This document shows, piece by piece, positions 13,630 to 57,021 of a stretch of DNA of 64,000 bases (positions are counted from its first letter, which is position 1; each line of letters opens with the position of its first letter). The DNA lies in contig JAFMHF010000003.1 in NCBI GenBank assembly GCA_017854655.1, positions 645 through 64,644 of the forward strand. The letters run 5' to 3'. A program made the position numbers and the translations under genes. The notes below the pieces were generated by a model. That model was given only the letters and a program-made list of their open reading frames with translations, was not told the DNA's origin and searched no databases. This DNA is from Puniceicoccaceae bacterium. Its GTDB lineage: Bacteria > Verrucomicrobiota > Verrucomicrobiia > Opitutales > Coraliomargaritaceae.

Positions 13630-16458
13630 TCAGGCTTCAGGTGACTGGGACAGACTGCTTGCGATCGATGGTGTTTCGACTGTCGTCGGTTTCACCGATA
13701 TTGGCAACACTTTGCCAGGCCAAGCTTTGACCGTCGCGACGACACGCCTGAGCAGCGAAGGCTTTCGACTTGCCAAAGCTAATTTCGGATTGTGCCAATA
13801 GTCGCTGGCCGATTTGCGAATACGGGCGTGTTTTACGGCGTTGCGGAGTGCGTCCTTATCGTCTGTGTAAATGCGGATACGACGACGTCCGCGACTAGCC
13901 GACACATAAAACTGTTGCAAAGAAGACGCAACAAAACTGCCCGACGACTGCGCGATAAAAACGTTATCGACTGTCTTCCCCTGCGAGGCATGTGACGTCG
14001 TGCAGTATCCATGAGCGAAATGGACAGCATCGTTTGGCAGTGTCATACCCTCGCCGAAACTCACGCGCCCCGCGGCGTCGATGCTTTCGACGGTGTGGAG
14101 GGTTCCGTTATGGAGCGGATTGCCTTCAACCGATTTAGAATTTCGCGTGATGCGTACGCGATCACCGAGCATAAGCTCTACCATATCCAGTTTGAAAACA
14201 TCGAATTTATCGGCGTGCTGTTTCAAGTTTAAGGTATGCGTATCGCCTTTGTCGTCCCGAAGCCAGAGTTCTCCGTCATGTCCGGTATAGATTTTAGCCC
14301 TAAAATCTTTCGGAAGGTTTCCAGCCTTCTGATTGAGCTGGATGTAATAGTCATCCAGTTCCTTCGCGAATACCTTGTAACGAGATTCCTCGCCACGCTG
14401 CGCAACTGTCCAGTTTACTGATCGCAGAACCTGGCGCTCACTCACGTCACCCTTCAACTCTCCGTGAGCTTTTAGTAGACCGCGGATCGCTGTCGTCACA
14501 TATGCTGCTTCTTCGTGTGTTGGAGAGACGCAGAGCGTCGTACGCGGCTGATTTTTGTCGTTCAATTCCTTGATGCTCAAGATATAGTCTAACGCTAAGC
14601 GTTGGTAACGTTCATGCCAGCGTATCTCCTTGATTGCATTGACGCCCTCCAGTTGATCAAAGGCTCGATCAACTTGTCCATCCGAAATTAGCCGGACTGC
14701 TTCACGGTAGATCGGATCCTGTTGGCGATAGATACAGTCAAGTTCTGCTGGCTTGAGGCCACCATATCGCTCTAAGATGCGGAGGGCATCGCCTCGCTCG
14801 ACGGAGTTGTGCTGGGAGGTGTCACCAGACAGTATGAGACGGCAGTCGTGAGCTTGTGACAGCTCCGCGAGTCTGGCCATCTGCTTGGCAGATAGAAGCC
14901 CCGCTTCGTCTATCCAGAGGATCGATCCGTGAAGATTTTGTTGCATTTTGGGATCGACCAAAAGGCGTTGAACGGTGTCAGCGTCCTTGAATCCTTCCTT
15001 CCGCAGAGTGTTCTTCGCGGCATCACTCGTCGGGGCGAACGTTTTAACTCTGTGTCCGGCAGCGTGGAGCGCTTTGATCGTGGCAGTCATCATGGTCGTT
15101 TTGCCCGTGCCTGCACGACCACGTAACGCCGTCACCCGATTTCTGGAACTGAGAATTTGACGCATGGCGATGATCTGCTGATCAGAAAGGTGCGCCGTGT
15201 CCGCCCCCTTCGGATCGGCATTGAAGGCCTTGTGGGCGAATCGTCCATTTTTAGAATAATCGATAAATAAGCGCTCTTCGTCGAGCACTTCATCAGTTGT
15301 GCACCAAGTGCGCCCCGTATCATCATAACGTATCATTTTTCGGGAGTAGACCGCGCTTTCGATGGCGTCGTGCCGAGCCTCACCTAATCCTGATTTAATC
15401 GCTTCGGCGATCACGCCGCGTTCTGACTCTACCGACTTTCTCTCGAAGACGTGCTTCAATGCAAAGTCAGTTGCATTCTCGACGGCTTCCTTTGAATGTC
15501 GCGGCGAAGCCGTCACCCGGCGGTTACGAGCGCGCAGAAAGATCTCGTGTAGGTGTAATCGCTCATTTTGACCGATACGATCCAACCATTCGCTTTTGAG
15601 TTCTAAAGAAGTCATCTGTTCAGCGTCGCTTTTTTTACGACGAGTACGTTTCCCCAACTCCGCCTCCTGCTTGGTGGTTAAGTCATGTCCTCGCTTGGCT
15701 TTTTCGATTTCCTTGGTTCGATTGGAAAAGAGATCTCGAACCTGTTTGCTCACACCCGCGATCTCCCAACCACCTTTTTCGGTTCGCTCTATATCATAGC
15801 CCAAGTTCTGTAGCCTCTGAACAAGACGGCTGTAGAAGCAGGCCTCAAAGTAACGTGCGTCGAATTTGATCTCACCGAACTGACCTGCCTTCCATCGGTT
15901 TTCGACAGGATCCCAGGTGCCGTTAAATGCCACCGCATGCACATGTAGATGCGGGTCAGGGAGCACCTTTGCCTGTCCTTCAACGCCATCCTCAGCTACT
16001 GGACGAGTTGCAAGGTGGGTGAATTGCGACCAAACGAGATTTCCTGTGGTGCGGTCAACATCCTGGCCGTGCTTACGGACGCGTGTGGACATGTCTTTTT
16101 CGATTTGGCGCATGGTTTCATAGACAGAACGTTCGAAAGCGACGCAGATGGCCTCATCGCCCGTTAAGGCATGGAGTAAGGATACGGACTTCGGGGCGTG
16201 AAAGTTGAAATCGTAACCGACACGACGGTTCTTCTTATTGCGAGAGGTCCACTGTTTGCCCGTGCGCGGATTCTGATTGTCGCAAAGTTGATGAAAGTCT
16301 TCTTTGTTGACTGCGCCTTTGAGTCCAAGCTGATCCGCTCCGTGCCCGCCCCAAACGCCGGGCTTTTCAAGCCCGGCGGTGTAGTAGTCCACCGCCTGCG
16401 GGTCGGTGTAATATGTCTTGGCGGCCTCGGAGGACTTGATGGTGCAGATGCGAAGCAT
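13630..16458 (-). CDS. mobF: MOBF (TrwC/TraI-like) conjugative relaxase-helicase
   Basis: N-terminal TYY...DYY catalytic tyrosines, GVWGGHGA, HUH motif PDPHLHVH, SF1B helicase motifs GRAGTGKTT, WIDEAG, GDTSQH, HGYCTTSHASQGKTVD. Confidence 0.95.
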   Translation of the reverse strand: MLRICTIKSSEAAKTYYTDPQAVDYYTAGLEKPGVWGGHGADQLGLKGAVNKEDFHQLCDNQNPRTGKQWTSRNKKNRRVGYDFNFHAPKSVSLLHALTGDEAICVAFERSVYETMRQIEKDMSTRVRKHGQDVDRTTGNLVWSQFTHLATRPVAEDGVEGQAKVLPDPHLHVHAVAFNGTWDPVENRWKAGQFGEIKFDARYFEACFYSRLVQRLQNLGYDIERTEKGGWEIAGVSKQVRDLFSNRTKEIEKAKRGHDLTTKQEAELGKRTRRKKSDAEQMTSLELKSEWLDRIGQNERLHLHEIFLRARNRRVTASPRHSKEAVENATDFALKHVFERKSVESERGVIAEAIKSGLGEARHDAIESAVYSRKMIRYDDTGRTWCTTDEVLDEERLFIDYSKNGRFAHKAFNADPKGADTAHLSDQQIIAMRQILSSRNRVTALRGRAGTGKTTMMTATIKALHAAGHRVKTFAPTSDAAKNTLRKEGFKDADTVQRLLVDPKMQQNLHGSILWIDEAGLLSAKQMARLAELSQAHDCRLILSGDTSQHNSVERGDALRILERYGGLKPAELDCIYRQQDPIYREAVRLISDGQVDRAFDQLEGVNAIKEIRWHERYQRLALDYILSIKELNDKNQPRTTLCVSPTHEEAAYVTTAIRGLLKAHGELKGDVSERQVLRSVNWTVAQRGEESRYKVFAKELDDYYIQLNQKAGNLPKDFRAKIYTGHDGELWLRDDKGDTHTLNLKQHADKFDVFKLDMVELMLGDRVRITRNSKSVEGNPLHNGTLHTVESIDAAGRVSFGEGMTLPNDAVHFAHGYCTTSHASQGKTVDNVFIAQSSGSFVASSLQQFYVSASRGRRRIRIYTDDKDALRNAVKHARIRKSASDYWHNPKLALASRKPSLLRRVVATVKAWPGKVLPISVKPTTVETPSIASSLSQSPEA

Positions 16459-21166: not shown

Positions 21167-21661
21167 ATGACTGAAATATACATTCACACTATCACCAAGG
21201 AGGAAATCACTGGCATGGACTTTAGTCGGTTCGAAAGCCTTTTTGGAGAGTGGCCTCAGCTACGTGGCGACTCACTTCGTAGGCGATATAATTCGCTTGC
21301 CATATTCGTCAGCGGTTACGACCTGCATCCCGACGAAATTTACGTTATCTCAGAGGTCAGGGCTTTCTTTTCTGAGCTTCACCGAAGATGGCCTTGGTGG
21401 CTATACTTCATACACAATTTGGAGGCTAGCATAGCCATTCTGTATCTATGCCTACTGGATCGAGTTGAATCTTTCAAGCGCGAGAACGATGCCATGTGCT
21501 CTGCTGCTTTCGACATCGAACAATTGCTAGAGCATATTCAAAATGACTTCATTCGAATGAACTTCTTGATGGATCGAGCCGGAATGACCGACGAGGAGAA
21601 TAATACGAGATCTCAGGAAATCCTCGATCTATTTGTTCCTAGTATTGGAGGTGCAAAATGA
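21167..21661 (+). CDS. CRR6 (DUF1817)-like protein
   Basis: LAIFVSGYDLHPDEIYVISEVRAFFSELHRRWPWWLYF matches the CRR6-family pattern (GYD..P.E...I.EVR.F...L...P..YF). Confidence 0.6.
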   Translation: MTEIYIHTITKEEITGMDFSRFESLFGEWPQLRGDSLRRRYNSLAIFVSGYDLHPDEIYVISEVRAFFSELHRRWPWWLYFIHNLEASIAILYLCLLDRVESFKRENDAMCSAAFDIEQLLEHIQNDFIRMNFLMDRAGMTDEENNTRSQEILDLFVPSIGGAK

Positions 21662-21918
21662 GTAGCGAAGCTGTCGAATACTGGTCACTTTTTGTCGTGA
21701 CTTCGATTTATTCCATCGTGCCAATGTATCCATCCTGGTTGCTGCTTTGGGTGACAATTGGCTTAATTTGGGACAGGCGCTATGGCCCCAGTTGGTGCCA
21801 ATATAATCGAAAGACAAGGACTTATAAATTTCTAATTCTAGATTTCCTCGTCTGCTTTCCTTTCGCACTTGTCTGCATGCTTGCAGTCATACTTTCGAAA
21901 GGAGCAAGCAATGAATAG
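21658..21918 (+). CDS. Small membrane protein
   Basis: Two or three hydrophobic segments; ATGA overlap upstream and overlap with the next gene. Confidence 0.55.
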   Translation: MSSEAVEYWSLFVVTSIYSIVPMYPSWLLLWVTIGLIWDRRYGPSWCQYNRKTRTYKFLILDFLVCFPFALVCMLAVILSKGASNE

Positions 21919-23335
21919 TTCAGACATAAATCACCTAGATGATAGCATTATAAATCTACCCTGTTATGAACCAGCAGGTTCCTCTGTTTCGATGACTATC
22001 GCTGATCTAATGGGGCACACACTGGTGACAGGCGGTAGTGGCACTGGAAAAACCACTCGTGTGATTTATCCGATGCTGAAGCAGCTGCTTGAAAAGACGG
22101 CAAGTTCTTCAGAAACGAAAGTGGGTCTATGCATTATCGATACGAAAGCCGATGGTGAAATGATCGCATATCTTAAGAAAGCCTGTCTTGAGGCTGGGCG
22201 CTTAAAAGATCTATGCGTCATTGATTGTGATAGTGATTACTGCGTGGATTTGTTGGATCCGGTAAAGCAGAACGGCATACAAGGAGCTGAGGTTATTTCT
22301 GGCCTGTTGGCGGCACTAATTCCCGAATCGGAAATCAATCGATACTGGGAGGTCACTTTTGAATCGATGCTTTTGCTTGCTCTACGACTGTATTTTTTGA
22401 CTGCCGAAATACAGAGCTACTCTGATATGGTGAAATTCCTAATTCGCTACTTGTTGTATTTCGATGTTCTTAACGATGAGTTTAAGGAGGCGCTGTATTC
22501 ACTACAGGAGGACAAGGAAACTAAAAATGCTGCTGTCATTGAGGAAACCCTCGCAGGGCATCGAATGTGGAAAACACTCGATGTGCGAACGCGAAGTGTC
22601 TTTCAATCAATGGCTGCGCCACTGCTTAATTCACTATCTAGTAAGACTGCTCGAAAATTCTTTTCAGGCGGTAAGGCGTGTAGTGTTCAAGACGCCACAA
22701 ACTTTGGAAAAGTCTTTGCCATTAGTGTCGATGCAATCCGAGAGCCAACAGTTGGTGCACTTGTGTCGACCATTATCAAAGGTCAATTTTACGATTCGAT
22801 TTTGAATCGACGGCATCGAGATCGAAATGAGCAGCGTATAGCTGGCTTGGTAATGGATGATTGGCCACTTTGTGCGACTGGAGGGGTGAATAACCGTCAC
22901 TCTGATGTTAGCGCACTCGGTATGATACGCTCCAGGCGTGGTTTTGTCATTGCCGCCACCCAAGGGCTGTCAGCGCTGGATTTAAAGATTGGAGCAGTTT
23001 CAAGACGCGCCGCTATGGGGAATTTTTCCAATGTATTTTTCTTTAGGGGGCGAGATTTTGAGTTAGACGCTTTTGCATCAACGTATCTGGGGGAGAGACG
23101 TAAGGTTCTTCAAGATCGCACAAAGCCGGCTAAAGAGCATACCTCACGCAGACAAGCTGAAGCACTGGAGCATGAGCGAGAAACATTCGTCCCTGCCGTT
23201 CCAGTTGGTGCACTCGCTCGTTTGCCACTAGGTGAAGCTTTTGCTCTAATCGGCGGGGCAGTTCATAGTCAGCCACTATGCCTAGTTCCTGACTATGCGC
23301 CAACGCTGGAGGTGGAACATGAGCAGGAAAGTTGA
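21911..23335 (+). CDS. VirD4/TraD-like type IV coupling ATPase (no N-terminal TM in this ORF); ORF caller start 21869
   Basis: HTLVTGGSGTGKTT, IIDTKADG, Walker B-like LVMDDW, IAATQGLSAL, NFSNVFFFR, LARLPLGEA. Confidence 0.7.
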   Translation: MNSSDINHLDDSIINLPCYEPAGSSVSMTIADLMGHTLVTGGSGTGKTTRVIYPMLKQLLEKTASSSETKVGLCIIDTKADGEMIAYLKKACLEAGRLKDLCVIDCDSDYCVDLLDPVKQNGIQGAEVISGLLAALIPESEINRYWEVTFESMLLLALRLYFLTAEIQSYSDMVKFLIRYLLYFDVLNDEFKEALYSLQEDKETKNAAVIEETLAGHRMWKTLDVRTRSVFQSMAAPLLNSLSSKTARKFFSGGKACSVQDATNFGKVFAISVDAIREPTVGALVSTIIKGQFYDSILNRRHRDRNEQRIAGLVMDDWPLCATGGVNNRHSDVSALGMIRSRRGFVIAATQGLSALDLKIGAVSRRAAMGNFSNVFFFRGRDFELDAFASTYLGERRKVLQDRTKPAKEHTSRRQAEALEHERETFVPAVPVGALARLPLGEAFALIGGAVHSQPLCLVPDYAPTLEVEHEQES

Positions 23336-23843
23336 CTTCCAAGCAGTCCATGAAAGGGCATTGGCTAGAGTTTCTCTGGATGCATCAATTGGGCGAATTC
23401 CGTTTTATGACTATAGCATTGAGTATCAATCGGCATTGGGTTTGCCGTTCCACAGTCCTGAACCTGAACTGATTCATTTTTTAGAATACTCTGAGAAAAT
23501 TGAGAATTCAAAAAATGCATGTGAGAAGATTGAAAGGTGCTATTCGAGATATTCCGTCGAGATACCTATCGGGCTACTAGATCTTCCGGTCTGGTGGACG
23601 CCTGCTATTATTGACTCGATTAAGGCAGCGAATTGGGTCGAAGCGGACTCTTCATGGACAAGAAAGGTCTTCGGATGGACTTACGTTCAGATGCAAGGTG
23701 CATTTTTGGACATTCAATTTGAAAATCCAATATCTTGTGATTCCAGCGATTGGTTTCAAATGGCACAGGCACTTCTTGATCTTCACCGTCGTCTAGAGCC
23801 CGGTCCACTAACGTCTCGAAAGCGACTCATCGAATTCGTATAA
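23319..23843 (+). CDS. Hypothetical protein; ORF caller start 23295
   Basis: Overlaps the coupling-protein stop; followed by a terminator; no family recognised. Confidence 0.55.
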   Translation: MSRKVDFQAVHERALARVSLDASIGRIPFYDYSIEYQSALGLPFHSPEPELIHFLEYSEKIENSKNACEKIERCYSRYSVEIPIGLLDLPVWWTPAIIDSIKAANWVEADSSWTRKVFGWTYVQMQGAFLDIQFENPISCDSSDWFQMAQALLDLHRRLEPGPLTSRKRLIEFV

Positions 23844-23870: not shown

Positions 23871-23902
23871 GAACCCCGCCAATCGGCGGGGTTCTTTGCT
23901 TT
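23871..23902 (+). terminator. Intrinsic terminator
   Basis: GAACCCCGCC-AATC-GGCGGGGTTC perfect 10-bp stem followed by TTTGCTTT. Confidence 0.8.
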
Positions 23903-23924
23903 CCATACCCGACAACTAAAATTT

Positions 23925-25064
23925 ATGGAAATACAATACACACGCGACTACCTGCTCACCTGCGAAACGGAGAGCTACTCACCATGGCCCAACTTTAAAC
24001 CAAATCAAACGATTCAGCTCGGAGGCCTTTGGCGCAGTGTCCACCTCTATCATGTATTAACCGCTGCTGACTTAAGCTGCGCTGCTTGGCGCGCGGCGAT
24101 CCCTAGCAATATACTACGGACATTACAGCAATTCTCCGAGTGCCATGCCGAGCTAATCGAGATGGCGCAAGTTGTCCCAGATTTTTACCTAAACACGGTA
24201 AGAAAAAGCCCAGCTCTTACCCTTCTATACGCCACATACTGGATCTATCACTCTATTGAAGAAGCTCCGTCGATTGATGAGCGAATGATCGTATGGGAGA
24301 ATTTGGATTCCCAGAACCTTCTGCAACATATGCGCTTTAATGCGTCAAAAAGCTTCATTCGAGCTTTGTCGAAGATCCCAATTGCAGACGCGACACACTA
24401 TTTGATCCGAGCAATTCGAGATCACTGGCAAGTCCCTGATAAGCGACGGCTTCTTCAGCACAGAGATAGTATAAAAATCGAGAACGCGTGGCTACTGTCA
24501 TGTTACCCCGCAATACTTGATCCAGGCATTCACCAGCTCGCTGCAGAAGCTCCAAACTATGAAGAGTATACACTTGTGGACGTCGTCTGTGATCTGTCAA
24601 ACCGCCGAGAACTGCATGGCTGGGAACCGTGGCCTTATAGGAATATGATTCTCACATGGGAACAGCTTTTGCGTGCATATAATAATTTTTTCAAGAAGAC
24701 CAATCACTTCCCAGAGACCTTTCCAAAACCGCCAGTCTATGGGGTTACGGATGAGAATTATCACATTGAAGCGCTGACCAATCTAACTGCGCTCAAGCGC
24801 GAGTCAAGAGAGATGGCGAACTGCACCGAGGATTACGCTGGCCCTATCGCTTATGGGAAATCTTACGCTTACCGGCTCCTGATACCTGAAAGAGCAACCG
24901 TGATGCTTGAGTATCGTTCAGGGCGCTGGGGCATCGAAGAAGCAATGATTTCCGAGAATCTACGTGCAGTCCTACCCAGTACATGGATTCAACTTCGAAA
25001 ATGGCTGAAAGAAAATTCGGAACTAAAAAATTCGTCAAAATTAAAACTAAATAACTATGAATAA
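23925..25064 (+). CDS. PcfJ-domain protein (paralogue 1)
   Basis: C-terminal IEALTNLTALKRESREMANCTEDY...YAYRLLIPERATVML resembles the PcfJ-like domain. Confidence 0.65.
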   Translation: MEIQYTRDYLLTCETESYSPWPNFKPNQTIQLGGLWRSVHLYHVLTAADLSCAAWRAAIPSNILRTLQQFSECHAELIEMAQVVPDFYLNTVRKSPALTLLYATYWIYHSIEEAPSIDERMIVWENLDSQNLLQHMRFNASKSFIRALSKIPIADATHYLIRAIRDHWQVPDKRRLLQHRDSIKIENAWLLSCYPAILDPGIHQLAAEAPNYEEYTLVDVVCDLSNRRELHGWEPWPYRNMILTWEQLLRAYNNFFKKTNHFPETFPKPPVYGVTDENYHIEALTNLTALKRESREMANCTEDYAGPIAYGKSYAYRLLIPERATVMLEYRSGRWGIEEAMISENLRAVLPSTWIQLRKWLKENSELKNSSKLKLNNYE

Positions 25065-26193
25065 ACTAGACAATTATCAATACCTATCAGACGCCTCTAT
25101 TCGCATCGATGACGTTACCTTTCGCCCTTGGCCTGACTTCTGCATCATTGGAGAAGTTGGCTGTGGAAAGAACCACTTATTGCCCAATCTGCTGGTCTCG
25201 TCTGACCCGCTTGCGATTATGTGGAGAGGGAAAATCCCTACAAAGGTGCTCGAACTTATTCGGCGCTTTCCAGTGTGTCTGTGGAGTGGCCTCCTCGAAC
25301 TCTCTCAACTGCATGCGGAGTATTTCCTACAATGGGGACAGAATTGTCCAGCGCTCATTGGTTTGCTTGCCATGCACTCAAGTGAAATACAAGCGGACCG
25401 AGATCTTGACCGAATTCGAGCATTGTATAAAGGACGCAAAGAAAGAATGAAAGTCGTTGGTCTGCCGCCGACGAGGGAAGCGTTCCGCATACTACAAAAA
25501 CTTACTGTAGAAGACTGCTACCCAACACAGCTTGAGCAACTTCGTTCGGCAGTGAATCATTCAAAGAAAAGGCGTCTAATGACGCACCTCAGTCGCATTA
25601 CATGCTCAACCCTAGAGACATTGCTTTTGCCTGATACTTTTTTGGACGTGAATTTGCTTCAACTAGAAGACGCCGGCGAGTTGCCCGATGATTATAATTC
25701 AGTCGCCGCACTCTGCTCAGATATTGCCGATTGCAGGCGTAAACTCGGAAAACTACCGGTCTGGCCGTATCGTGGTAGTAAAATTAGCGTGCACAAGCTG
25801 CTGCAAGCTCGTGATAGCTACGAACTAGAACTACTCCTGGGCGAAGAATATAAAGCAACAGTACTCCCTGATCCGCCTGTCGGCGGGATTGTAAGCAGTC
25901 AGATCAGAATCGAAGCACTCCGAACTGTGAGGGATATTTGCGACGAAGGAACTTGTATGAAGAACTGCCTCATTACGTATGCCCAGGCGATCATGAAAGG
26001 GACCCATTATGCCTATAAAATGATTTACCCTGAACGGGCAACGATACTGTTGAATCGGAAGATGGAAGACTGGTACCCTGTCGAGATTCGAGGGTACGAA
26101 AATAGTTATATCGATCCAAATCATGTAGATCTAATTTATACGTGGCTGGGAAATCTCAACCGAAAGGAGGTGCCAGATGACTTCCCTTTCTGA
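25057..26193 (+). CDS. PcfJ-domain protein (paralogue 2)
   Basis: C-terminal IEALRTVRDICDEGTCMKNCLITY...YAYKMIYPERATILL; collinear with the upstream ORF over its whole length. Confidence 0.65.
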   Translation: MNKLDNYQYLSDASIRIDDVTFRPWPDFCIIGEVGCGKNHLLPNLLVSSDPLAIMWRGKIPTKVLELIRRFPVCLWSGLLELSQLHAEYFLQWGQNCPALIGLLAMHSSEIQADRDLDRIRALYKGRKERMKVVGLPPTREAFRILQKLTVEDCYPTQLEQLRSAVNHSKKRRLMTHLSRITCSTLETLLLPDTFLDVNLLQLEDAGELPDDYNSVAALCSDIADCRRKLGKLPVWPYRGSKISVHKLLQARDSYELELLLGEEYKATVLPDPPVGGIVSSQIRIEALRTVRDICDEGTCMKNCLITYAQAIMKGTHYAYKMIYPERATILLNRKMEDWYPVEIRGYENSYIDPNHVDLIYTWLGNLNRKEVPDDFPF

Positions 26194-27226
26194 ACCATTT
26201 AAACGTCGAATGTTGGCTCCAATTGAGACTCTTCTAAAAGGTGCCATCGATGAAGGCACCCCATCGAGACCTAATTCCGGAGGACGTAACATTGAGCCGC
26301 CGATATTCGACGAAGAAGATCCTACATTTGAAAGCAACCACTCTTATGCTCCCGCCCGTAGTGGTCATGTCGGTAAGGTCGATAAAGAAGCTTATGAGCA
26401 GACGCTTTATCGGATGAACGGCTTGATCGGCTTGCAGTCGGCGAAGCAATCAATTCGGCGACTATCTGACTTCGCATGTATCGAGTCGGAACGCCGACGT
26501 CTCAAGCTTCCGCTGTCCGAAATTACCTTTCACTGTGTCTTCACCGGGGCACCTGGCACTGGAAAAACTTCGTTCGCGAGGCTACTGGGCAAGCTACTTC
26601 ATTCATTGGGGCTACTGGAGAGTGGACACACGATCGAGGTGTCCAAGTCCGACCTTGTGGGCGGTTACTTGGGGCAGACACCTTTGAAAGTTAAAAAGGT
26701 TTTCGACCATGCCGATGGCGGCGTTCTCTTCCTCGACGAAGCGTATTCGCTCACCCACGACGACCAAGATCTCTACGGCAAAGAAGCTATCGATATGATT
26801 GTCAAACTAATGGAAGATCGGCGCGACCGTGTCGTAGTGATCGTCGCGGGATACCCAAAACAAATGCGTGAATTCATCGCATCAAATCCCGGTCTGAGAT
26901 CACGATTTAGCCGTACTATTTTCTTCGACAATTTCGACGCTGAAGAACTGTACTCTATTGAGAAGCAGATGATCCGAAGTTCAGGATTTGACGGATCAGA
27001 TGGGTTCTTTCTTCGCAGTGAACTGATGTGGCAAAAGCTCTATGAGCAGCGTCTAACACATGGCTCCAATGCCCGTTTGGTTCGCAGCGCGATGGACATT
27101 ATATTAGAAAACCAAGCAGCACGCCTTAACAGAATTCCGCGAAAAAAGCGTCACGAACTATGTGAGCTGATCGCCGATGATTTGGACGGGGTTGAGACTC
27201 AACTAAGATGGAATCACGATGACTAA
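26177..27226 (+). CDS. CbbX/SpoVK/EccA-family AAA+ ATPase
   Basis: LIGLQSAK, HCVFTGAPGTGKT, DLVGGYLGQT, GGVLFLDEAYSL, VIVAGY, NPGLRSRF, NARLVR. Confidence 0.9.
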   Translation: MTSLSEPFKRRMLAPIETLLKGAIDEGTPSRPNSGGRNIEPPIFDEEDPTFESNHSYAPARSGHVGKVDKEAYEQTLYRMNGLIGLQSAKQSIRRLSDFACIESERRRLKLPLSEITFHCVFTGAPGTGKTSFARLLGKLLHSLGLLESGHTIEVSKSDLVGGYLGQTPLKVKKVFDHADGGVLFLDEAYSLTHDDQDLYGKEAIDMIVKLMEDRRDRVVVIVAGYPKQMREFIASNPGLRSRFSRTIFFDNFDAEELYSIEKQMIRSSGFDGSDGFFLRSELMWQKLYEQRLTHGSNARLVRSAMDIILENQAARLNRIPRKKRHELCELIADDLDGVETQLRWNHDD

Positions 27227-28403
27227 ACGCACACAAATTAAGGTTGTTCAGCAGGACATGTGGATGGATTCGTTGCCTCCCATTCTGCTGGATCGAATAC
27301 GTCTCTGTTCCAGTGAAAGAGAGGTGCCAGCGGAGATTCCACTGATGGTCGGACTGGCCGCTGTAGCAGCCAGCTTAGGCTCCGGTCTAGAAATTCAGTC
27401 GGGAACTAACCGTACAACACGCGCTAATCTTTTTGTTCTCCTCGGTGTCAGTTCTGGAATCGGAAAAAGTGAGGTTTTCAGAGACCTACTTGGCCCTCTG
27501 CTTGCTTTCGAAGATGCGTTGCACCGTTGGTGGGAAAACGAGCCATTGGTTAAAGCCAGAGCCGGTGAGGAATTGCTTAAAGCTAGGATTTCAGGTATGC
27601 GAACTGAAATTCGAAAACTTCACTCAGGACTTGCGACGAGTTTTTTCGAAAAGCTTCAAGAAGCCGAACGCGCTCGTATGGCATGCGAAACATTCCGGCA
27701 CGCACCAAGCCTTTTGGCCGATGATTCAACATCTGAGGCACTGGCTCAAATGATGTTTCGGTCGAATGAGGCTATCGCCTCCGTCTCTGCGGATGCTCGT
27801 TATTTCCTAAAGCGTCTGGGCACTCCAGACACAAAGGAGGAGTCATTTTTCCTAAAGGGGTTTAGCGGCGACTTAGCACTGACGAATCGCGTTTCCCGTA
27901 ATGCCGTTCGCCTGCGAAAACCTTGTTTGACGACACTGCTTCTTACGCAGCGCGATGCTTACAGGGATTTCATAGATAAGTCGGTGAAGAATCGTTCCGG
28001 TCTACTGCCCAGATTTCTGCATGCGCGAATCAACCACTCAAAGTCAGACTTGGTCAGGATCGATGGACGGACAACTAGCCGGATCCGCAACGATTACGCT
28101 GAACGTATAAAAGACATCATTGAAGCATATCGCTTCGAATCAAGTCCGACAACAGTCGAAGTCTCTGACTCAGCTAAACAGTTCATCGAGAGCATCGAAC
28201 GTGAATGTCGAAACGCTGCCATGACCGACGAAAGTCTACATGGCGAAATAATGCGACGCCGGGCCGAACAAACTTGGAGGGTCAGTCTGTGCCTGCATGC
28301 TCTGCGGTATGGAACAACTTCCACCCTGCATCCACTGGAACTCAGTGACGCTCAAACCGCAGTTCAGATCGTGACTCGATTCACCGCTACACCTGAAAAC
28401 TGA
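27219..28403 (+). CDS. DUF3987/YfjI-family P-loop protein (helicase-like)
   Basis: NLFVLLGVSSGIGKS, ADDSTSEAL, RSGLLPRFL and C-terminal RRRAEQTWRVSLCLH. Confidence 0.7.
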   Translation: MTKRTQIKVVQQDMWMDSLPPILLDRIRLCSSEREVPAEIPLMVGLAAVAASLGSGLEIQSGTNRTTRANLFVLLGVSSGIGKSEVFRDLLGPLLAFEDALHRWWENEPLVKARAGEELLKARISGMRTEIRKLHSGLATSFFEKLQEAERARMACETFRHAPSLLADDSTSEALAQMMFRSNEAIASVSADARYFLKRLGTPDTKEESFFLKGFSGDLALTNRVSRNAVRLRKPCLTTLLLTQRDAYRDFIDKSVKNRSGLLPRFLHARINHSKSDLVRIDGRTTSRIRNDYAERIKDIIEAYRFESSPTTVEVSDSAKQFIESIERECRNAAMTDESLHGEIMRRRAEQTWRVSLCLHALRYGTTSTLHPLELSDAQTAVQIVTRFTATPEN

Positions 28404-28417
28404 AATACATAATAGCC

Positions 28418-28609
28418 ATGAAAAAACTTAACGAAAAGCTCGATAGGATCAAAGCGGAAGCCCTTGAGCTAACAACAGTCATTGATCGCTTGATAGTAGA
28501 GGTTCAGTCTCTTCGTGTCGAAGCCACATCCGCAGAAGACGCGAAGCGACGTCATCGACTGGAAATGGATCTGCTGAACATGAAAGACTTTATGTGGATT
28601 CGTAGATAG
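28418..28609 (+). CDS. Small coiled-coil hypothetical protein
   Basis: 63 aa with heptad-like pattern; 14 nt after the previous gene. Confidence 0.45.
   Translation: MKKLNEKLDRIKAEALELTTVIDRLIVEVQSLRVEATSAEDAKRRHRLEMDLLNMKDFMWIRR

Positions 28610-55224: not shown

Positions 55225-57021
<1,797 letters not shown>

What the first reader, a model, noticed from the sequence alone, without database searches (positions are those of the whole stretch)
23925..28609. Uncharacterised coupled operon: two PcfJ-like paralogues, CbbX/SpoVK AAA+, DUF3987 ATPase and a small coiled coil
After a strong terminator, four genes overlap by 8-17 nt (25064/25057, 26193/26177, 27226/27219), indicating a translationally coupled unit. 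The two ~379-aa PcfJ-like proteins are collinear but diverged (E-S-R-E-M-A-N-C versus E-G-T-C-M-K-N-C). CbbX/EccA/SpoVK ATPases are established substrate remodellers, and DUF3987 proteins are helicase-like. Inference: a heterodimeric PcfJ client or sensor, an AAA+ remodeller and a DNA motor form a system for element replication, anti-defence or defence. I know of no description of this combination.
Basis: partly seen in the sequence, partly recalled or inferred. Interest (0 to 1): 0.65.

Follow-up and report, generated by a model that had tools for sequence, protein, structure and literature searches.

The report
Mobile-element operon with SSB-tail mimic
The four overlapping genes are real and form a conserved backbone operon of a family of mobilizable genomic islands in marine Verrucomicrobia, most likely serving the island's own DNA replication or establishment, and one of the two PcfJ proteins ends in a copy of the tail that the host's single-stranded-DNA-binding protein uses to recruit other proteins.

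Summary
Observation confirmed. ORFs, overlaps of 8, 17 and 8 nt, upstream hairpin, family assignments and quoted motifs are all as described.

The operon is backbone, not cargo. It belongs to integrative mobilizable elements with a TrwC relaxase, a coupling-protein-like ATPase and a large serine recombinase beside a tRNA gene. No VirB4 was found in any host genome.

All four genes recur in this order in 10 distinct loci at 30-71% identity. In 401 genomes of the phylum, the PcfJ pair and the orthologous helicase occur in the same five genomes, adjacent. The unit can still be split:
- one element has a single PcfJ;
- one has the PcfJ pair without the AAA+ ATPase or helicase;
- two are deletion derivatives.

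New here: every PcfJ2-type protein ends in a disordered acidic tail, ...DD[F/Y]PF-COOH. Host SSB ends ...DEDVPF. Only SSB, a DUF3127 protein and PcfJ2 carry such an end among 2752 host ORFs. 26 of 150 diverse PcfJ representatives end in PF.

Best reading (0.42): a replication or establishment module made of a DUF3987 5'-3' helicase, a CbbX-like remodeller and a PcfJ hub that mimics the SSB tip. PcfJ and the 182-aa partner have confidently predicted folds with no solved relative. An anti-defence role is the main rival. A defence role is unlikely.

The parts
23295..23843 (+). o182: 182-aa (or 174-aa) protein of unknown fold that precedes the PcfJ genes
   Evidence: It is conserved upstream of PcfJ1 in nearly all related loci, including the Mob_Pre element L014. 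Its family has only 26 database members, all from this element family. The AF2 model has pLDDT 92 and no PDB fold match.
23871..23894 (+). GC-rich hairpin followed by a T run (intrinsic terminator or attenuator) ahead of the operon. An A-rich leader follows it.
   Evidence: Seen. A hairpin at the same place is found in L003, L004, L008, L009, L047, L053, L060, L061 and L062. The outer stem bases differ in a compensating way, and an AAACA(T/A)AAAAA leader lies before the start codon.
23925..25064 (+). PcfJ1: PcfJ-like paralogue without the C-terminal tail
   Evidence: Pfam PcfJ gives 18.2 bits, below the cut-off. It is 25-26% identical to PcfJ2 with E=1.3e-29. It falls in a tail-less clade of 16 that is sister to the PcfJ2-type clade.
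25057..26193 (+). PcfJ2: PcfJ-like protein
   Evidence: Pfam PcfJ gives 27.2 bits, above the cut-off of 25. The AF2 model has pLDDT 93.9. There is no PDB fold match. BFVD matches are phage PcfJ-like proteins.
26149..26190 (+). Disordered C-terminal tail of PcfJ2, GNLNRKEVPDDFPF-COOH, resembling the SSB C-terminal tip
   Evidence: pLDDT falls to 79 and then 48 over the last residues. The tail is kept in all PcfJ2 orthologues. Host SSB ends DEDVPF. Only 3 of 2752 host ORFs have an acidic ...PF end.
26177..27226 (+). CbbX/SpoVK/EccA-type AAA+ ATPase. Walker A is at 26546-26572, the pore loop DLVGGYLGQT at 26651-26680 and Walker B at 26723-26752. The N-terminal helix FKRRMLAPIETLL is conserved.
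27219..28403 (+). Stand-alone DUF3987 P-loop protein, a putative 5'-3' helicase. Walker A GVSSGIGKSE is at 27444-27473 and the Walker-B-like LLADD at 27708-27737.
   Evidence: Pfam gives 142 bits over the full model. PHROG 2373 is labelled 'DNA helicase'. Helicase activity of the family was shown for AgaPH (PMC11724360).
28418..28609 (+). o63: small helical protein that closes the operon
   Evidence: It is 46-54% identical in L009 and L065. A similar 69-aa gene follows the PcfJ pair in L014.
21869..23335 (+). Context: coupling-protein-like (TraG/TraD/VirD4) ATPase of the backbone
   Evidence: It matches TraG-D_C and TIGR03743/03754 weakly. It is conserved in all related loci.
13630..16458 (-). 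Context: TrwC (MOBF) relaxase-helicase
   Evidence: Seen. A 45% identical orthologue lies at the same place in C. algicola.
55225..57021 (+). Context: large serine recombinase at the island's right end. It abuts and overlaps tRNA-Ser(cga) at 56922-57011 on the minus strand.
   Evidence: Seen. Orthologues lie directly after the operon and next to tRNA genes in L003, L012 and L047.

Best explanation
The operon is the conserved DNA replication or establishment module of a family of integrative mobilizable elements of marine Verrucomicrobia (Opitutales relatives). These elements have a TrwC relaxase, a coupling-protein-like ATPase and a large serine recombinase that integrates beside tRNA genes. 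They have no mating-pore genes of their own.

Proposed working (inferred):
- After excision, or after entry as single-stranded DNA, read-through of a conserved attenuating hairpin expresses five coupled genes.
- The DUF3987 protein is the element's own 5'-3' helicase.
- PcfJ2, probably together with its tail-less paralogue PcfJ1, acts as a hub on the element's DNA.
- PcfJ2's flexible acidic ...DDFPF-COOH tip imitates the C-terminal tip of host SSB. It would dock proteins that normally read that tip: either host primosome, polymerase or recombination factors, or the element's own helicase.
- The CbbX-type AAA+ ATPase threads a polypeptide through its pore to assemble, recycle or switch this complex. 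A flexible C-terminal tail such as PcfJ2's is the kind of handle that CbbX uses on Rubisco.

Shown: gene structure, conservation, family membership, intact motifs, and the existence, rarity and recurrence of the tail.

Inferred: every interaction and the replication or establishment role.
For: 1. Backbone position. The block DUF2779, o143, o164, coupling-like ATPase, o182, PcfJ1, PcfJ2, AAA+, DUF3987 and o63 is collinear in 10 distinct loci. Cargo differs between elements: Wadjet, nSTAND and metal efflux here, and a KAP NTPase cluster plus an OLD/UvrD pair in C. algicola.

2. Co-occurrence. In 401 genomes of the phylum, the PcfJ pair and the orthologous DUF3987 gene occur in the same 5 genomes, adjacent, and in none of three same-genus genomes.

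3. Coupling. The overlaps and the strong AAGGAGG before the AAA+ start are conserved. A distant PcfJ (L016) still overlaps a remnant of the AAA+ N-terminus.

4. Helicase. A DUF3987 protein, AgaPH, is a 5'-3' helicase proposed to replicate its mobile element (PMC11724360). Walker A and B are intact here.

5. AAA+ ATPase. It is closest to CbbX (E=3e-48) and EccA1. Its pore loop aligns with that of CbbX and keeps the Tyr.

6. The tail.
- All PcfJ2 orthologues end in (D/E)D[FY]PF.
- The tail is disordered in the model.
- SSB of this host and of four other host genomes ends D[ED]DVPF.
- Only SSB, a DUF3127 protein and PcfJ2 have an acidic ...PF end among 2752 ORFs.
- 26 of 150 PcfJ representatives end in PF against 5 of 2752 in the background (odds ratio 115).
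- At least 8 changes of this state are forced on the family tree.
- The tail is present in distant PcfJs that have no overlapping AAA+ gene (L055, L057).
- Substitutions in the overlap are synonymous in the PcfJ frame and non-synonymous in the AAA+ frame (TTCCCTTTC versus TTTCCCTTC).

7. Absence of an own SSB. The element carries no SSB gene of its own. The only PF00436 hit in the genome is on another contig.

8. Precedents. Prophage DUF669 ssDNA-binding proteins carry DDDIPF (PMC13687109). The SSB-Ct hexapeptide is the docking site for many partner proteins (PMC5872125).
Against: - No interaction, DNA binding or replication function has been tested.
- The PcfJ fold has no solved relative, is not an OB fold, and gives no hint of DNA binding.
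- No primase or polymerase was recognised in the element, although DUF3987 helicases usually accompany one.
- CbbX-type AAA+ proteins are protein remodellers, not known helicase loaders.
- The unit can be split. L014 has the PcfJ pair without the AAA+ ATPase or helicase. L011 has a single PcfJ. Tail-bearing PcfJs exist without a nearby AAA+ gene.
- In pCF10 the name-giving pcfJ is coupled to an AcrIIA9-family (PcfK) gene among anti-defence-type genes and has no PF tail. That points towards anti-defence rather than replication.
- PcfJ and o182 evolve faster (30-54% identity) than the AAA+ ATPase and helicase (49-71%).
- Relaxase linkage is not universal: none was found in G138, and in G297 it is on another contig.
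Confidence: 0.42

Rival explanations
1. Anti-defence or decoy module. PcfJ2's SSB-like tip titrates host proteins that dock on SSB, such as exonucleases acting on incoming single-stranded DNA, or blinds defence sensors that watch SSB-type proteins. The AAA+ ATPase and helicase strip or remodel host defence complexes. The operon would protect the element on entry into a new cell.
For: - The name-giving pcfJ of pCF10 overlaps an AcrIIA9-family (PcfK-domain) gene and lies next to DpnD/PcfM (PMC6739104).
- PcfJ-like proteins are also common in virulent phages.
- PcfJ genes on two plasmids lie beside AbiE and type I restriction-modification genes.
- PcfJ and o182 diverge faster than the ATPases.
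- The C. algicola helicase is fused to RadC. By my own recollection, RadC is a domain frequent in leading regions.
Against: - No similarity to any known anti-defence protein was found.
- The most conserved genes are a helicase and an AAA+ motor, which are unusual for anti-defence.
- The position of oriT, and so whether this is the leading region, is unknown.
- The association with AcrIIA9 is seen in pCF10 only, and no PcfK-domain gene was detected among the window genes scanned.
Confidence: 0.22
2. The genes are neighbours in a backbone but not one machine. There would be two independent modules: o182, PcfJ(s) and o63 on one side, and the AAA+ ATPase with DUF3987 on the other. They would have separate functions and happen to be co-transcribed.
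For: - L014 has o182, PcfJ, PcfJ and an o63-like gene without the AAA+ ATPase or DUF3987. There the small gene directly follows the PcfJ pair, as if AAA+ and DUF3987 were an insertion in the other elements.
- Tail-bearing PcfJs occur without a nearby AAA+ gene.
Against: - The PcfJ2 stop and AAA+ start overlap is kept in every locus that has both genes, and as remnants in L016 and L048.
- Co-occurrence in the phylum sample is strict.
Confidence: 0.2
3. An anti-phage or anti-plasmid defence system carried by the island, with PcfJ as sensor, the AAA+ ATPase as switch and the helicase as effector motor.
For: - The island carries other defence genes: Wadjet-like, nSTAND and a Lit-like peptidase.
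- The AAA+ ATPase has weak hits to IetA and TRIP13 models.
Against: - Neither PcfJ hits any PADLOC model, and the AAA+ hits are P-loop-level only.
- The operon is invariant backbone, always with the coupling protein, DUF2779 and recombinase, while defence cargo varies.
- No nuclease, toxin or other effector domain was recognised.
Confidence: 0.07

Closest known systems
AgaPP/AgaPH replication module of a Seonamhaeicola mobile element (PriCT-DUF3987 helicase; PMC11724360)
   Same: - Both have a DUF3987 P-loop protein with Walker A and B.
- Both are encoded in the conserved core of an integrated mobile element next to an integrase.
- The AgaPH helicase was shown to unwind 5'-3', and the authors proposed that it replicates the element.
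   Different: - Here DUF3987 stands alone, with no PriCT domain.
- No primase-polymerase gene is adjacent.
- Its partners are a CbbX-like AAA+ ATPase and PcfJ proteins instead.
CbbX (red-type Rubisco activase), EccA1 and SpoVK AAA+ ATPases
   Same: - The AAA plus AAA_lid_6 architecture is shared.
- Identity to the CbbX core is roughly 45% by eye from the printed alignment (E=3e-48).
- Walker A and B, the Arg-rich NPGxRSR motif and the pore-loop Tyr are conserved.
   Different: - Scores are far below the equivalog cut-offs of all three families.
- It has its own conserved N-terminal helix and a disordered linker.
- It is encoded in a mobile element with no Rubisco, type VII secretion or sporulation context.
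C-terminal tip of bacterial SSB (SSB-Ct, DDDIPF in E. coli; PMC5872125) and SSB-tip-bearing prophage DUF669 proteins (PMC13687109)
   Same: - The tail sits at the very C-terminus after a flexible segment.
- It is an acidic run followed by hydrophobic-Pro-Phe-COOH.
- It matches the host's own SSB tip (DEDVPF versus DDFPF).
   Different: - PcfJ2 has no OB fold and no SSB or DUF669 domain.
- Its ssDNA binding is unknown.
- The residue at position -3 is Phe or Tyr rather than Val, Ile or Leu.
PcfJ of Enterococcus faecalis plasmid pCF10 (Pfam PF14284)
   Same: - The C-terminal alpha/beta domain is homologous, with conserved E...NC...Y.Y...PER.T residues.
- Both are encoded on a conjugative or mobilizable element.
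   Different: - The pCF10 protein is 447 aa and has no PF tail.
- It is coupled to a PcfK/AcrIIA9-family gene rather than to an AAA+ ATPase and helicase.
- The function of the family is unknown.

Membership tests
PcfJ-like (Pfam PF14284) | Score at or above the Pfam gathering cut-off of 25 bits | tested here: met
   PcfJ2 scores 27.2 bits. PcfJ1 alone scores 18.2 bits, below the cut-off. PcfJ1 is homologous to PcfJ2 over its full length (E=1.3e-29), and a joint profile finds 3297 family representatives.
CbbX (TIGR02880), SpoVK (TIGR02881) and EccA (TIGR03922) equivalogs | Score above the curated equivalog cut-off (459, 423 and 467 bits) | tested here: not met
   The scores are 192, 228 and 180 bits. 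It belongs to the same AAA+ subgroup but is not an orthologue of any of the three.
Classical-clade AAA+ protein remodeller | Walker A, Walker B, Arg residues and a pore-loop aromatic residue | tested here: met
   The motifs GAPGTGKTS, VLFLDEAY and NPGLRSRF are present, and the pore loop DLVGGYLGQT aligns with DLVGQYIGHT of CbbX.
DUF3987 helicases (PF13148; AgaPH type) | Full-length domain match with Walker A and B | tested here: met
   It scores 142 bits over model positions 2-355 of 364. GVSSGIGKSE and LLADD are present.
DUF3987 helicases (PF13148; AgaPH type) | ATP-dependent 5'-3' unwinding | not testable with these tools
   Shown only for AgaPH (PMC11724360).
SSB C-terminal tip (SSB-Ct) | Acidic run plus hydrophobic-Pro-Phe at the free C-terminus, after a disordered linker | tested here: met
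   The tail is ...EVPDDFPF-COOH with pLDDT below 50 at residues 374-378. SSB of five host genomes ends D[ED]DVPF.
SSB family proper (PF00436, OB fold) | OB-fold ssDNA-binding domain | tested here: not met
   There is no SSB Pfam hit. The model is helical plus a small alpha/beta domain. PcfJ2 is therefore at most a mimic of the tip, not an SSB.
SSB C-terminal tip (SSB-Ct) | Binds the pockets of SSB-interacting proteins | not testable with these tools
   This needs peptide-binding assays or multimer modelling.
Integrative mobilizable element | Relaxase, integrase at the element's edge next to a tRNA gene, patchy distribution, and no mating-pore genes | tested here: met
   A TrwC relaxase is present. 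A serine recombinase lies beside tRNA-Ser. The element is present in 5 of 401 genomes and absent from 3 genomes of the same genus. No VirB4 (PF03135) was found in the 5 host genomes. Attachment sites and other VirB4 types were not tested.
Known anti-phage defence systems (PADLOC-DB 2.0) | Match of the component proteins to a system model | tested here: not met
   Neither PcfJ has a hit. The AAA+ ATPase gives only weak IetA and TRIP13 matches, and DUF3987 gives nothing meaningful.

The most novel reading that the evidence does not exclude
PcfJ is a large family with no assigned function, found on conjugative plasmids, integrative elements and phages. In this reading it would be a new, non-OB class of mobile-element hub proteins. 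A recurrent subfamily carries a molecular mimic of the host SSB C-terminal tip. It would use the mimic to capture the host's SSB-interacting replication and repair proteins, or the element's own DUF3987 helicase, for the incoming or excised element. A dedicated CbbX-like AAA+ ATPase would pull on that same tail to switch the complex on or off.
Probability: 0.25. Interest if true: 0.75.

Novelty: new variant of a known kind. Interest (0 to 1): 0.55.

Why it matters
PcfJ-like proteins number in the thousands. A profile search found 3297 cluster representatives. They sit on conjugative plasmids, integrative elements and large phages, yet no function is recorded for them in the searchable literature.

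The SSB-like tip on a recurrent subfamily turns "unknown" into a bench-testable hypothesis: peptide binding to SSB partners, tail deletions, and copy number or establishment of the element.

The work also defines a family of serine-recombinase mobilizable islands that ferry defence and metal-resistance cargo among marine Verrucomicrobia. One member lies in a complete genome of a named species, Coraliomargarita algicola.

If the CbbX-like ATPase acts on the PcfJ2 tail, it would be a new client type for this AAA+ subgroup.

Tried and rejected
- Megablast of the operon against plasmids found no match.
- tblastn of PcfJ2 against plasmids gave two weak C-terminal hits only.
- tblastn of the AAA+ ATPase against plasmids gave only generic CbbX/SpoVK-like relatives.
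- The PcfJ profile against PDB sequences gave nothing significant.
- Foldseek of the PcfJ2 model against PDB gave no match at E<=1. GNAT-like hits of about 90 residues had probability at most 0.66, and I do not accept them. I considered a PD-(D/E)XK reading of the C-terminal domain and dropped it, because the Lys position is not conserved between the paralogues.
- The o182 model against PDB gave no match. Its family is confined to these elements.
- DUF3987 against PDB sequences gave nothing.
With PcfJ2 orthologues it returned only 3 loci.
- The viral-contig scan returned no relatives, so there is no sign of a phage or satellite nature.
- L048 (DUF2779, AAA+, DUF3987 without PcfJ) first looked like an ancestral minimal module. 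I rejected that reading because the last PcfJ2 codons (DDRDDFPF*) remain in front of the AAA+ start, so it is a deletion derivative.
- I tested whether the PF tail is a by-product of dual coding with the AAA+ start, and rejected it.
- Literature searches for PcfJ, PcfJ-like, PcfK and DUF2779 gave no functional study.

Full report
**Observation**

- The junction sequences show an 8-nt overlap between PcfJ1 and PcfJ2 (ATGAATAA).
- PcfJ2 and the AAA+ gene overlap by 17 nt. The AAA+ start is preceded by AAGGAGGTG.
- The AAA+ gene and DUF3987 overlap by 8 nt.
- A 10-bp hairpin with 8 G-C pairs and a T-rich tail lies at 23871-23894, between the preceding 182-aa gene and PcfJ1.

Pfam assigns PcfJ to the second protein (27.2 bits, cut-off 25). 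The first protein scores only 18.2 bits. The two are collinear homologues (26% identity, E=1.3e-29). The motifs ESREMANC and EGTCMKNC are as quoted.

The third protein has AAA and AAA_lid_6 domains. It scores best against SpoVK, CbbX and EccA models, but far below their equivalog cut-offs. Its nearest solved structures are CbbX (E=3e-48) and EccA1. Walker A, Walker B, the Arg-rich motif and the pore-loop tyrosine are retained.

The fourth protein matches the whole DUF3987 model (142 bits) and has Walker A and B motifs.

**Context**

The window lies on a contig of a 2.3-Mb Verrucomicrobial assembly. Close relatives of its proteins are in Coraliomargarita and related genomes.

Upstream of the operon lie:
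- an nSTAND NTPase, a Wadjet/Mks-like cluster, a TrwC relaxase and a Lit-like peptidase;
- a DUF2779 protein, several small genes and a coupling-protein-like ATPase.

Downstream lie about 25 kb of metal-efflux genes. After them comes a large serine recombinase whose 3' end runs across a tRNA-Ser gene. G+C content rises beyond that point.

The whole stretch is therefore an integrated island. No VirB4 (PF03135) was found in this genome or in four other host genomes. The island is best called an integrative mobilizable element.

**Synteny**

The order DUF2779, o143, o164, coupling-like ATPase, o182, PcfJ1, PcfJ2, AAA+, DUF3987, (o63) recurs in these loci:
- Coraliomargarita algicola CP138858;
- Thalassobacterium sedimentorum;
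- two further genomes of the phylum sample (G138 and G297, the latter a Verrucomicrobiia assembly);
- several marine or saline metagenome contigs.

With the window, this makes ten distinct loci. Identities to the window proteins are:

| Protein | Identity to the window protein |
|---|---|
| PcfJ1 | 30-53% |
| PcfJ2 | 34-54% |
| AAA+ | 49-68% |
| DUF3987 | 54-71% |

. Two partial contigs agree with this order.

In C. algicola, L012 and L047 the serine recombinase follows the operon almost directly, and a tRNA gene follows the recombinase. The metal-resistance block in the window is therefore inserted cargo. The C. algicola element carries different cargo upstream of the relaxase: a KAP NTPase/TatD cluster and an OLD/UvrD pair.

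In a sample of 401 genomes of the phylum, the PcfJ pair and the orthologous DUF3987 gene are found in the same five genomes, adjacent. They are absent from three genomes of the same genus.

**Limits of the unit**

- One element (L011/L012) has a single PcfJ before the AAA+ gene and DUF3987.
- L014 has o182, two PcfJ genes and a small o63-like gene next to a Mob_Pre relaxase, without the AAA+ gene or DUF3987.
- L008 has a truncated AAA+ gene and no DUF3987.
- L048 has DUF2779, AAA+ and DUF3987 but no PcfJ. The last PcfJ2 codons (DDRDDFPF*) remain before the AAA+ start, so this is a deletion derivative.
- A distant PcfJ (L016) overlaps a remnant of the AAA+ N-terminus, which shows that the junction is old.

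On a family tree, the PcfJ1 type (16 rows) and the PcfJ2 type (20 rows) are sister clades. The duplication is therefore old.

**The PcfJ proteins**

A profile of both paralogues finds 3297 representatives at E<=1e-3, and most of them match nearly the full length. AlphaFold2 with 125 sequences gives a confident model (pLDDT 93.9). It has three short N-terminal strands, a helical middle part and a C-terminal alpha/beta domain that carries the nearly invariant E297, C304, Y320, P325, R327 and T329.

Foldseek finds no solved relative. In the viral library it finds only phage proteins already labelled PcfJ-like. The partner o182 also has a confident model with no solved relative, and its family is confined to these elements. 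The literature library holds no functional study of PcfJ.

**The tail**

All PcfJ2-type proteins end in an acidic stretch followed by [F/Y/A]-P-F at the free C-terminus. In the window this is RKEVPDDFPF. These residues follow the last helix and have low confidence in the model.

The tail is not a side effect of the overlapping AAA+ start, for two reasons:
- Between loci the overlap changes from TTCCCTTTC to TTTCCCTTC. That change is silent for Phe-Pro-Phe but alters the AAA+ frame from Ser-Leu-Ser to Phe-Pro-Ser.
- Distant PcfJ proteins with IDLPF-, DADMPF- or EDAPF-type ends have no overlapping gene downstream.

26 of 150 representatives end in PF. The tree requires at least eight changes of this state.

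The host's SSB ends ...LDEDVPF. SSBs of four other host genomes end D[ED]DVPF. Among 2752 ORFs of at least 100 aa in the host assembly, five end in PF. Only three of those have an acidic run: SSB, a DUF3127 protein and PcfJ2. The odds ratio against the PcfJ family is 115. The family rows are related, so the p-value overstates independence.

The SSB C-terminal hexapeptide is the docking site for many partner proteins (PMC5872125). Prophage DUF669 ssDNA-binding proteins are reported to carry the same motif (PMC13687109). PcfJ1 has no such tail. The element has no SSB gene of its own.

**Mechanism proposed**

The DUF3987 family contains a shown 5'-3' helicase that its authors assign to mobile-element replication (PMC11724360). 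From my own knowledge of the field, two points bear on the reading:
- CbbX works by pulling the C-terminal tail of the Rubisco large subunit into its pore.
- Integrative elements such as ICEBs1 replicate autonomously after excision.

Taken together, the best-supported reading is a replication or establishment module:
- The element supplies its own helicase.
- PcfJ2, probably together with PcfJ1, is a hub whose SSB-like tip captures SSB-interacting proteins or the element's helicase.
- The AAA+ ATPase assembles or recycles the complex, perhaps through that same tail.

The conserved hairpin and the A-rich leader suggest expression by attenuated read-through from the coupling-protein genes. All interactions are inferred. 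I put this reading at 0.42.

**Rivals**

| Reading | Confidence | Basis |
|---|---|---|
| Anti-defence or decoy | 0.22 | In pCF10 the name-giving pcfJ overlaps an AcrIIA9-family (PcfK) gene beside DpnD/PcfM. PcfJ occurs in virulent phages. PcfJ and o182 evolve faster than the ATPases. |
| Two independent co-transcribed modules | 0.20 | Fits L014 and the tail-bearing PcfJs without a nearby AAA+ gene, but not the conserved junction. |
| Defence system | 0.07 | Unlikely: invariant backbone position, no PADLOC hit for PcfJ and no effector domain. |

**Comparison and novelty**

Each enzyme belongs to a known family. The element is an ordinary kind of thing, a serine-recombinase mobilizable island. 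The specific combination, and above all the SSB-tip-like tail on a subfamily of the uncharacterised PcfJ family, were not found described. I rate it a new variant of a known kind, with interest 0.55.

Earlier AI notes from this scan mention two related things, and I did not test either:
- T1-like phage DUF3987 helicases coupled to small partners with acidic Phe-terminated tails;
- PcfJ inside a replication and recombination block elsewhere.

Both are consistent leads, not evidence.

I could not run multimer modelling or any binding test.

Noticed in passing
G000 contig C22:13848-14189 (minus strand), outside the window: A 113-aa DUF3127 protein (94 bits) ends ...DEVLDEEPPF. It is the only other non-SSB ORF in the host with an acidic ...PF C-terminus, so it may be a second SSB-tip bearer.
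   Followed up: partly
window 55225-57021 and 56922-57011: The large serine recombinase ORF runs antisense across the whole tRNA-Ser(cga) gene at the island's right end. Related elements sit beside tRNA-Ser(gct) (L003) and tRNA-Asn (L047). Attachment sites were not mapped.
   Followed up: partly
L059 (pCF10, NC_006827.2: 35873-37983): The name-giving pcfJ overlaps by 10 nt the upstream gene annotated as Cas9 inhibitor AcrIIA9 family (PcfK domain). It lies beside a DpnD/PcfM gene. The pCF10 PcfJ has no PF tail, whereas the plasmid's own SSB ends DHDLPF.
   Followed up: partly
L003 12175-13680 (Coraliomargarita algicola CP138858): The DUF3987 orthologue is fused to a C-terminal RadC domain (501 aa). 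It is followed by a small HTH gene and the serine recombinase.
   Followed up: no
L051 7038-16274 (C. algicola, upstream of the relaxase): The cargo of the related element differs from the window's Wadjet, nSTAND and metal-efflux cargo. It comprises a KAP-family NTPase with two unknown genes and a TatD DNase, then an OLD-TOPRIM ATPase with a UvrD helicase (Gabija-like), then an IS.
   Followed up: partly
L048 2969-3046; L008 11127-11354; L016 1482-1575: These are decayed versions of the operon. L048 keeps only the last PcfJ2 codons before an intact AAA+ gene. L008 has an AAA+ gene truncated to about 77 aa and has lost DUF3987. L016 has a distant PcfJ that overlaps a 27-codon remnant of the AAA+ N-terminus.
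   Followed up: yes
window 23895-23924 and the same place in L003, L004, L008, L009, L047, L053 and L060-L062: A conserved A-rich leader, AAACA(T/A)AAAAA, lies 3-6 nt before the PcfJ1 start and there is no Shine-Dalgarno sequence. The AAA+ gene, by contrast, has a perfect AAGGAGG. Only about 30 nt separate the terminator from the start codon, so there is no room for a standard promoter.
   Followed up: partly
window 21658-21918 versus L003 7907-8149: The 86-aa membrane-like ORF lies before the coupling-protein gene in the window but after it in L003, L004, L053, L060 and L061. This is a small rearrangement within the backbone.
   Followed up: no
L054 7934-9200 (G297): About 1.3 kb is inserted between o182 and PcfJ1 in this element, where the others have only the hairpin and leader. 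The content was not examined.
   Followed up: no
L055 6562-7852: A distant tail-bearing PcfJ (ending DADMPF) sits downstream of Nmad3 and DUF1643 genes, which is a different context from the conjugative ones.
   Followed up: no
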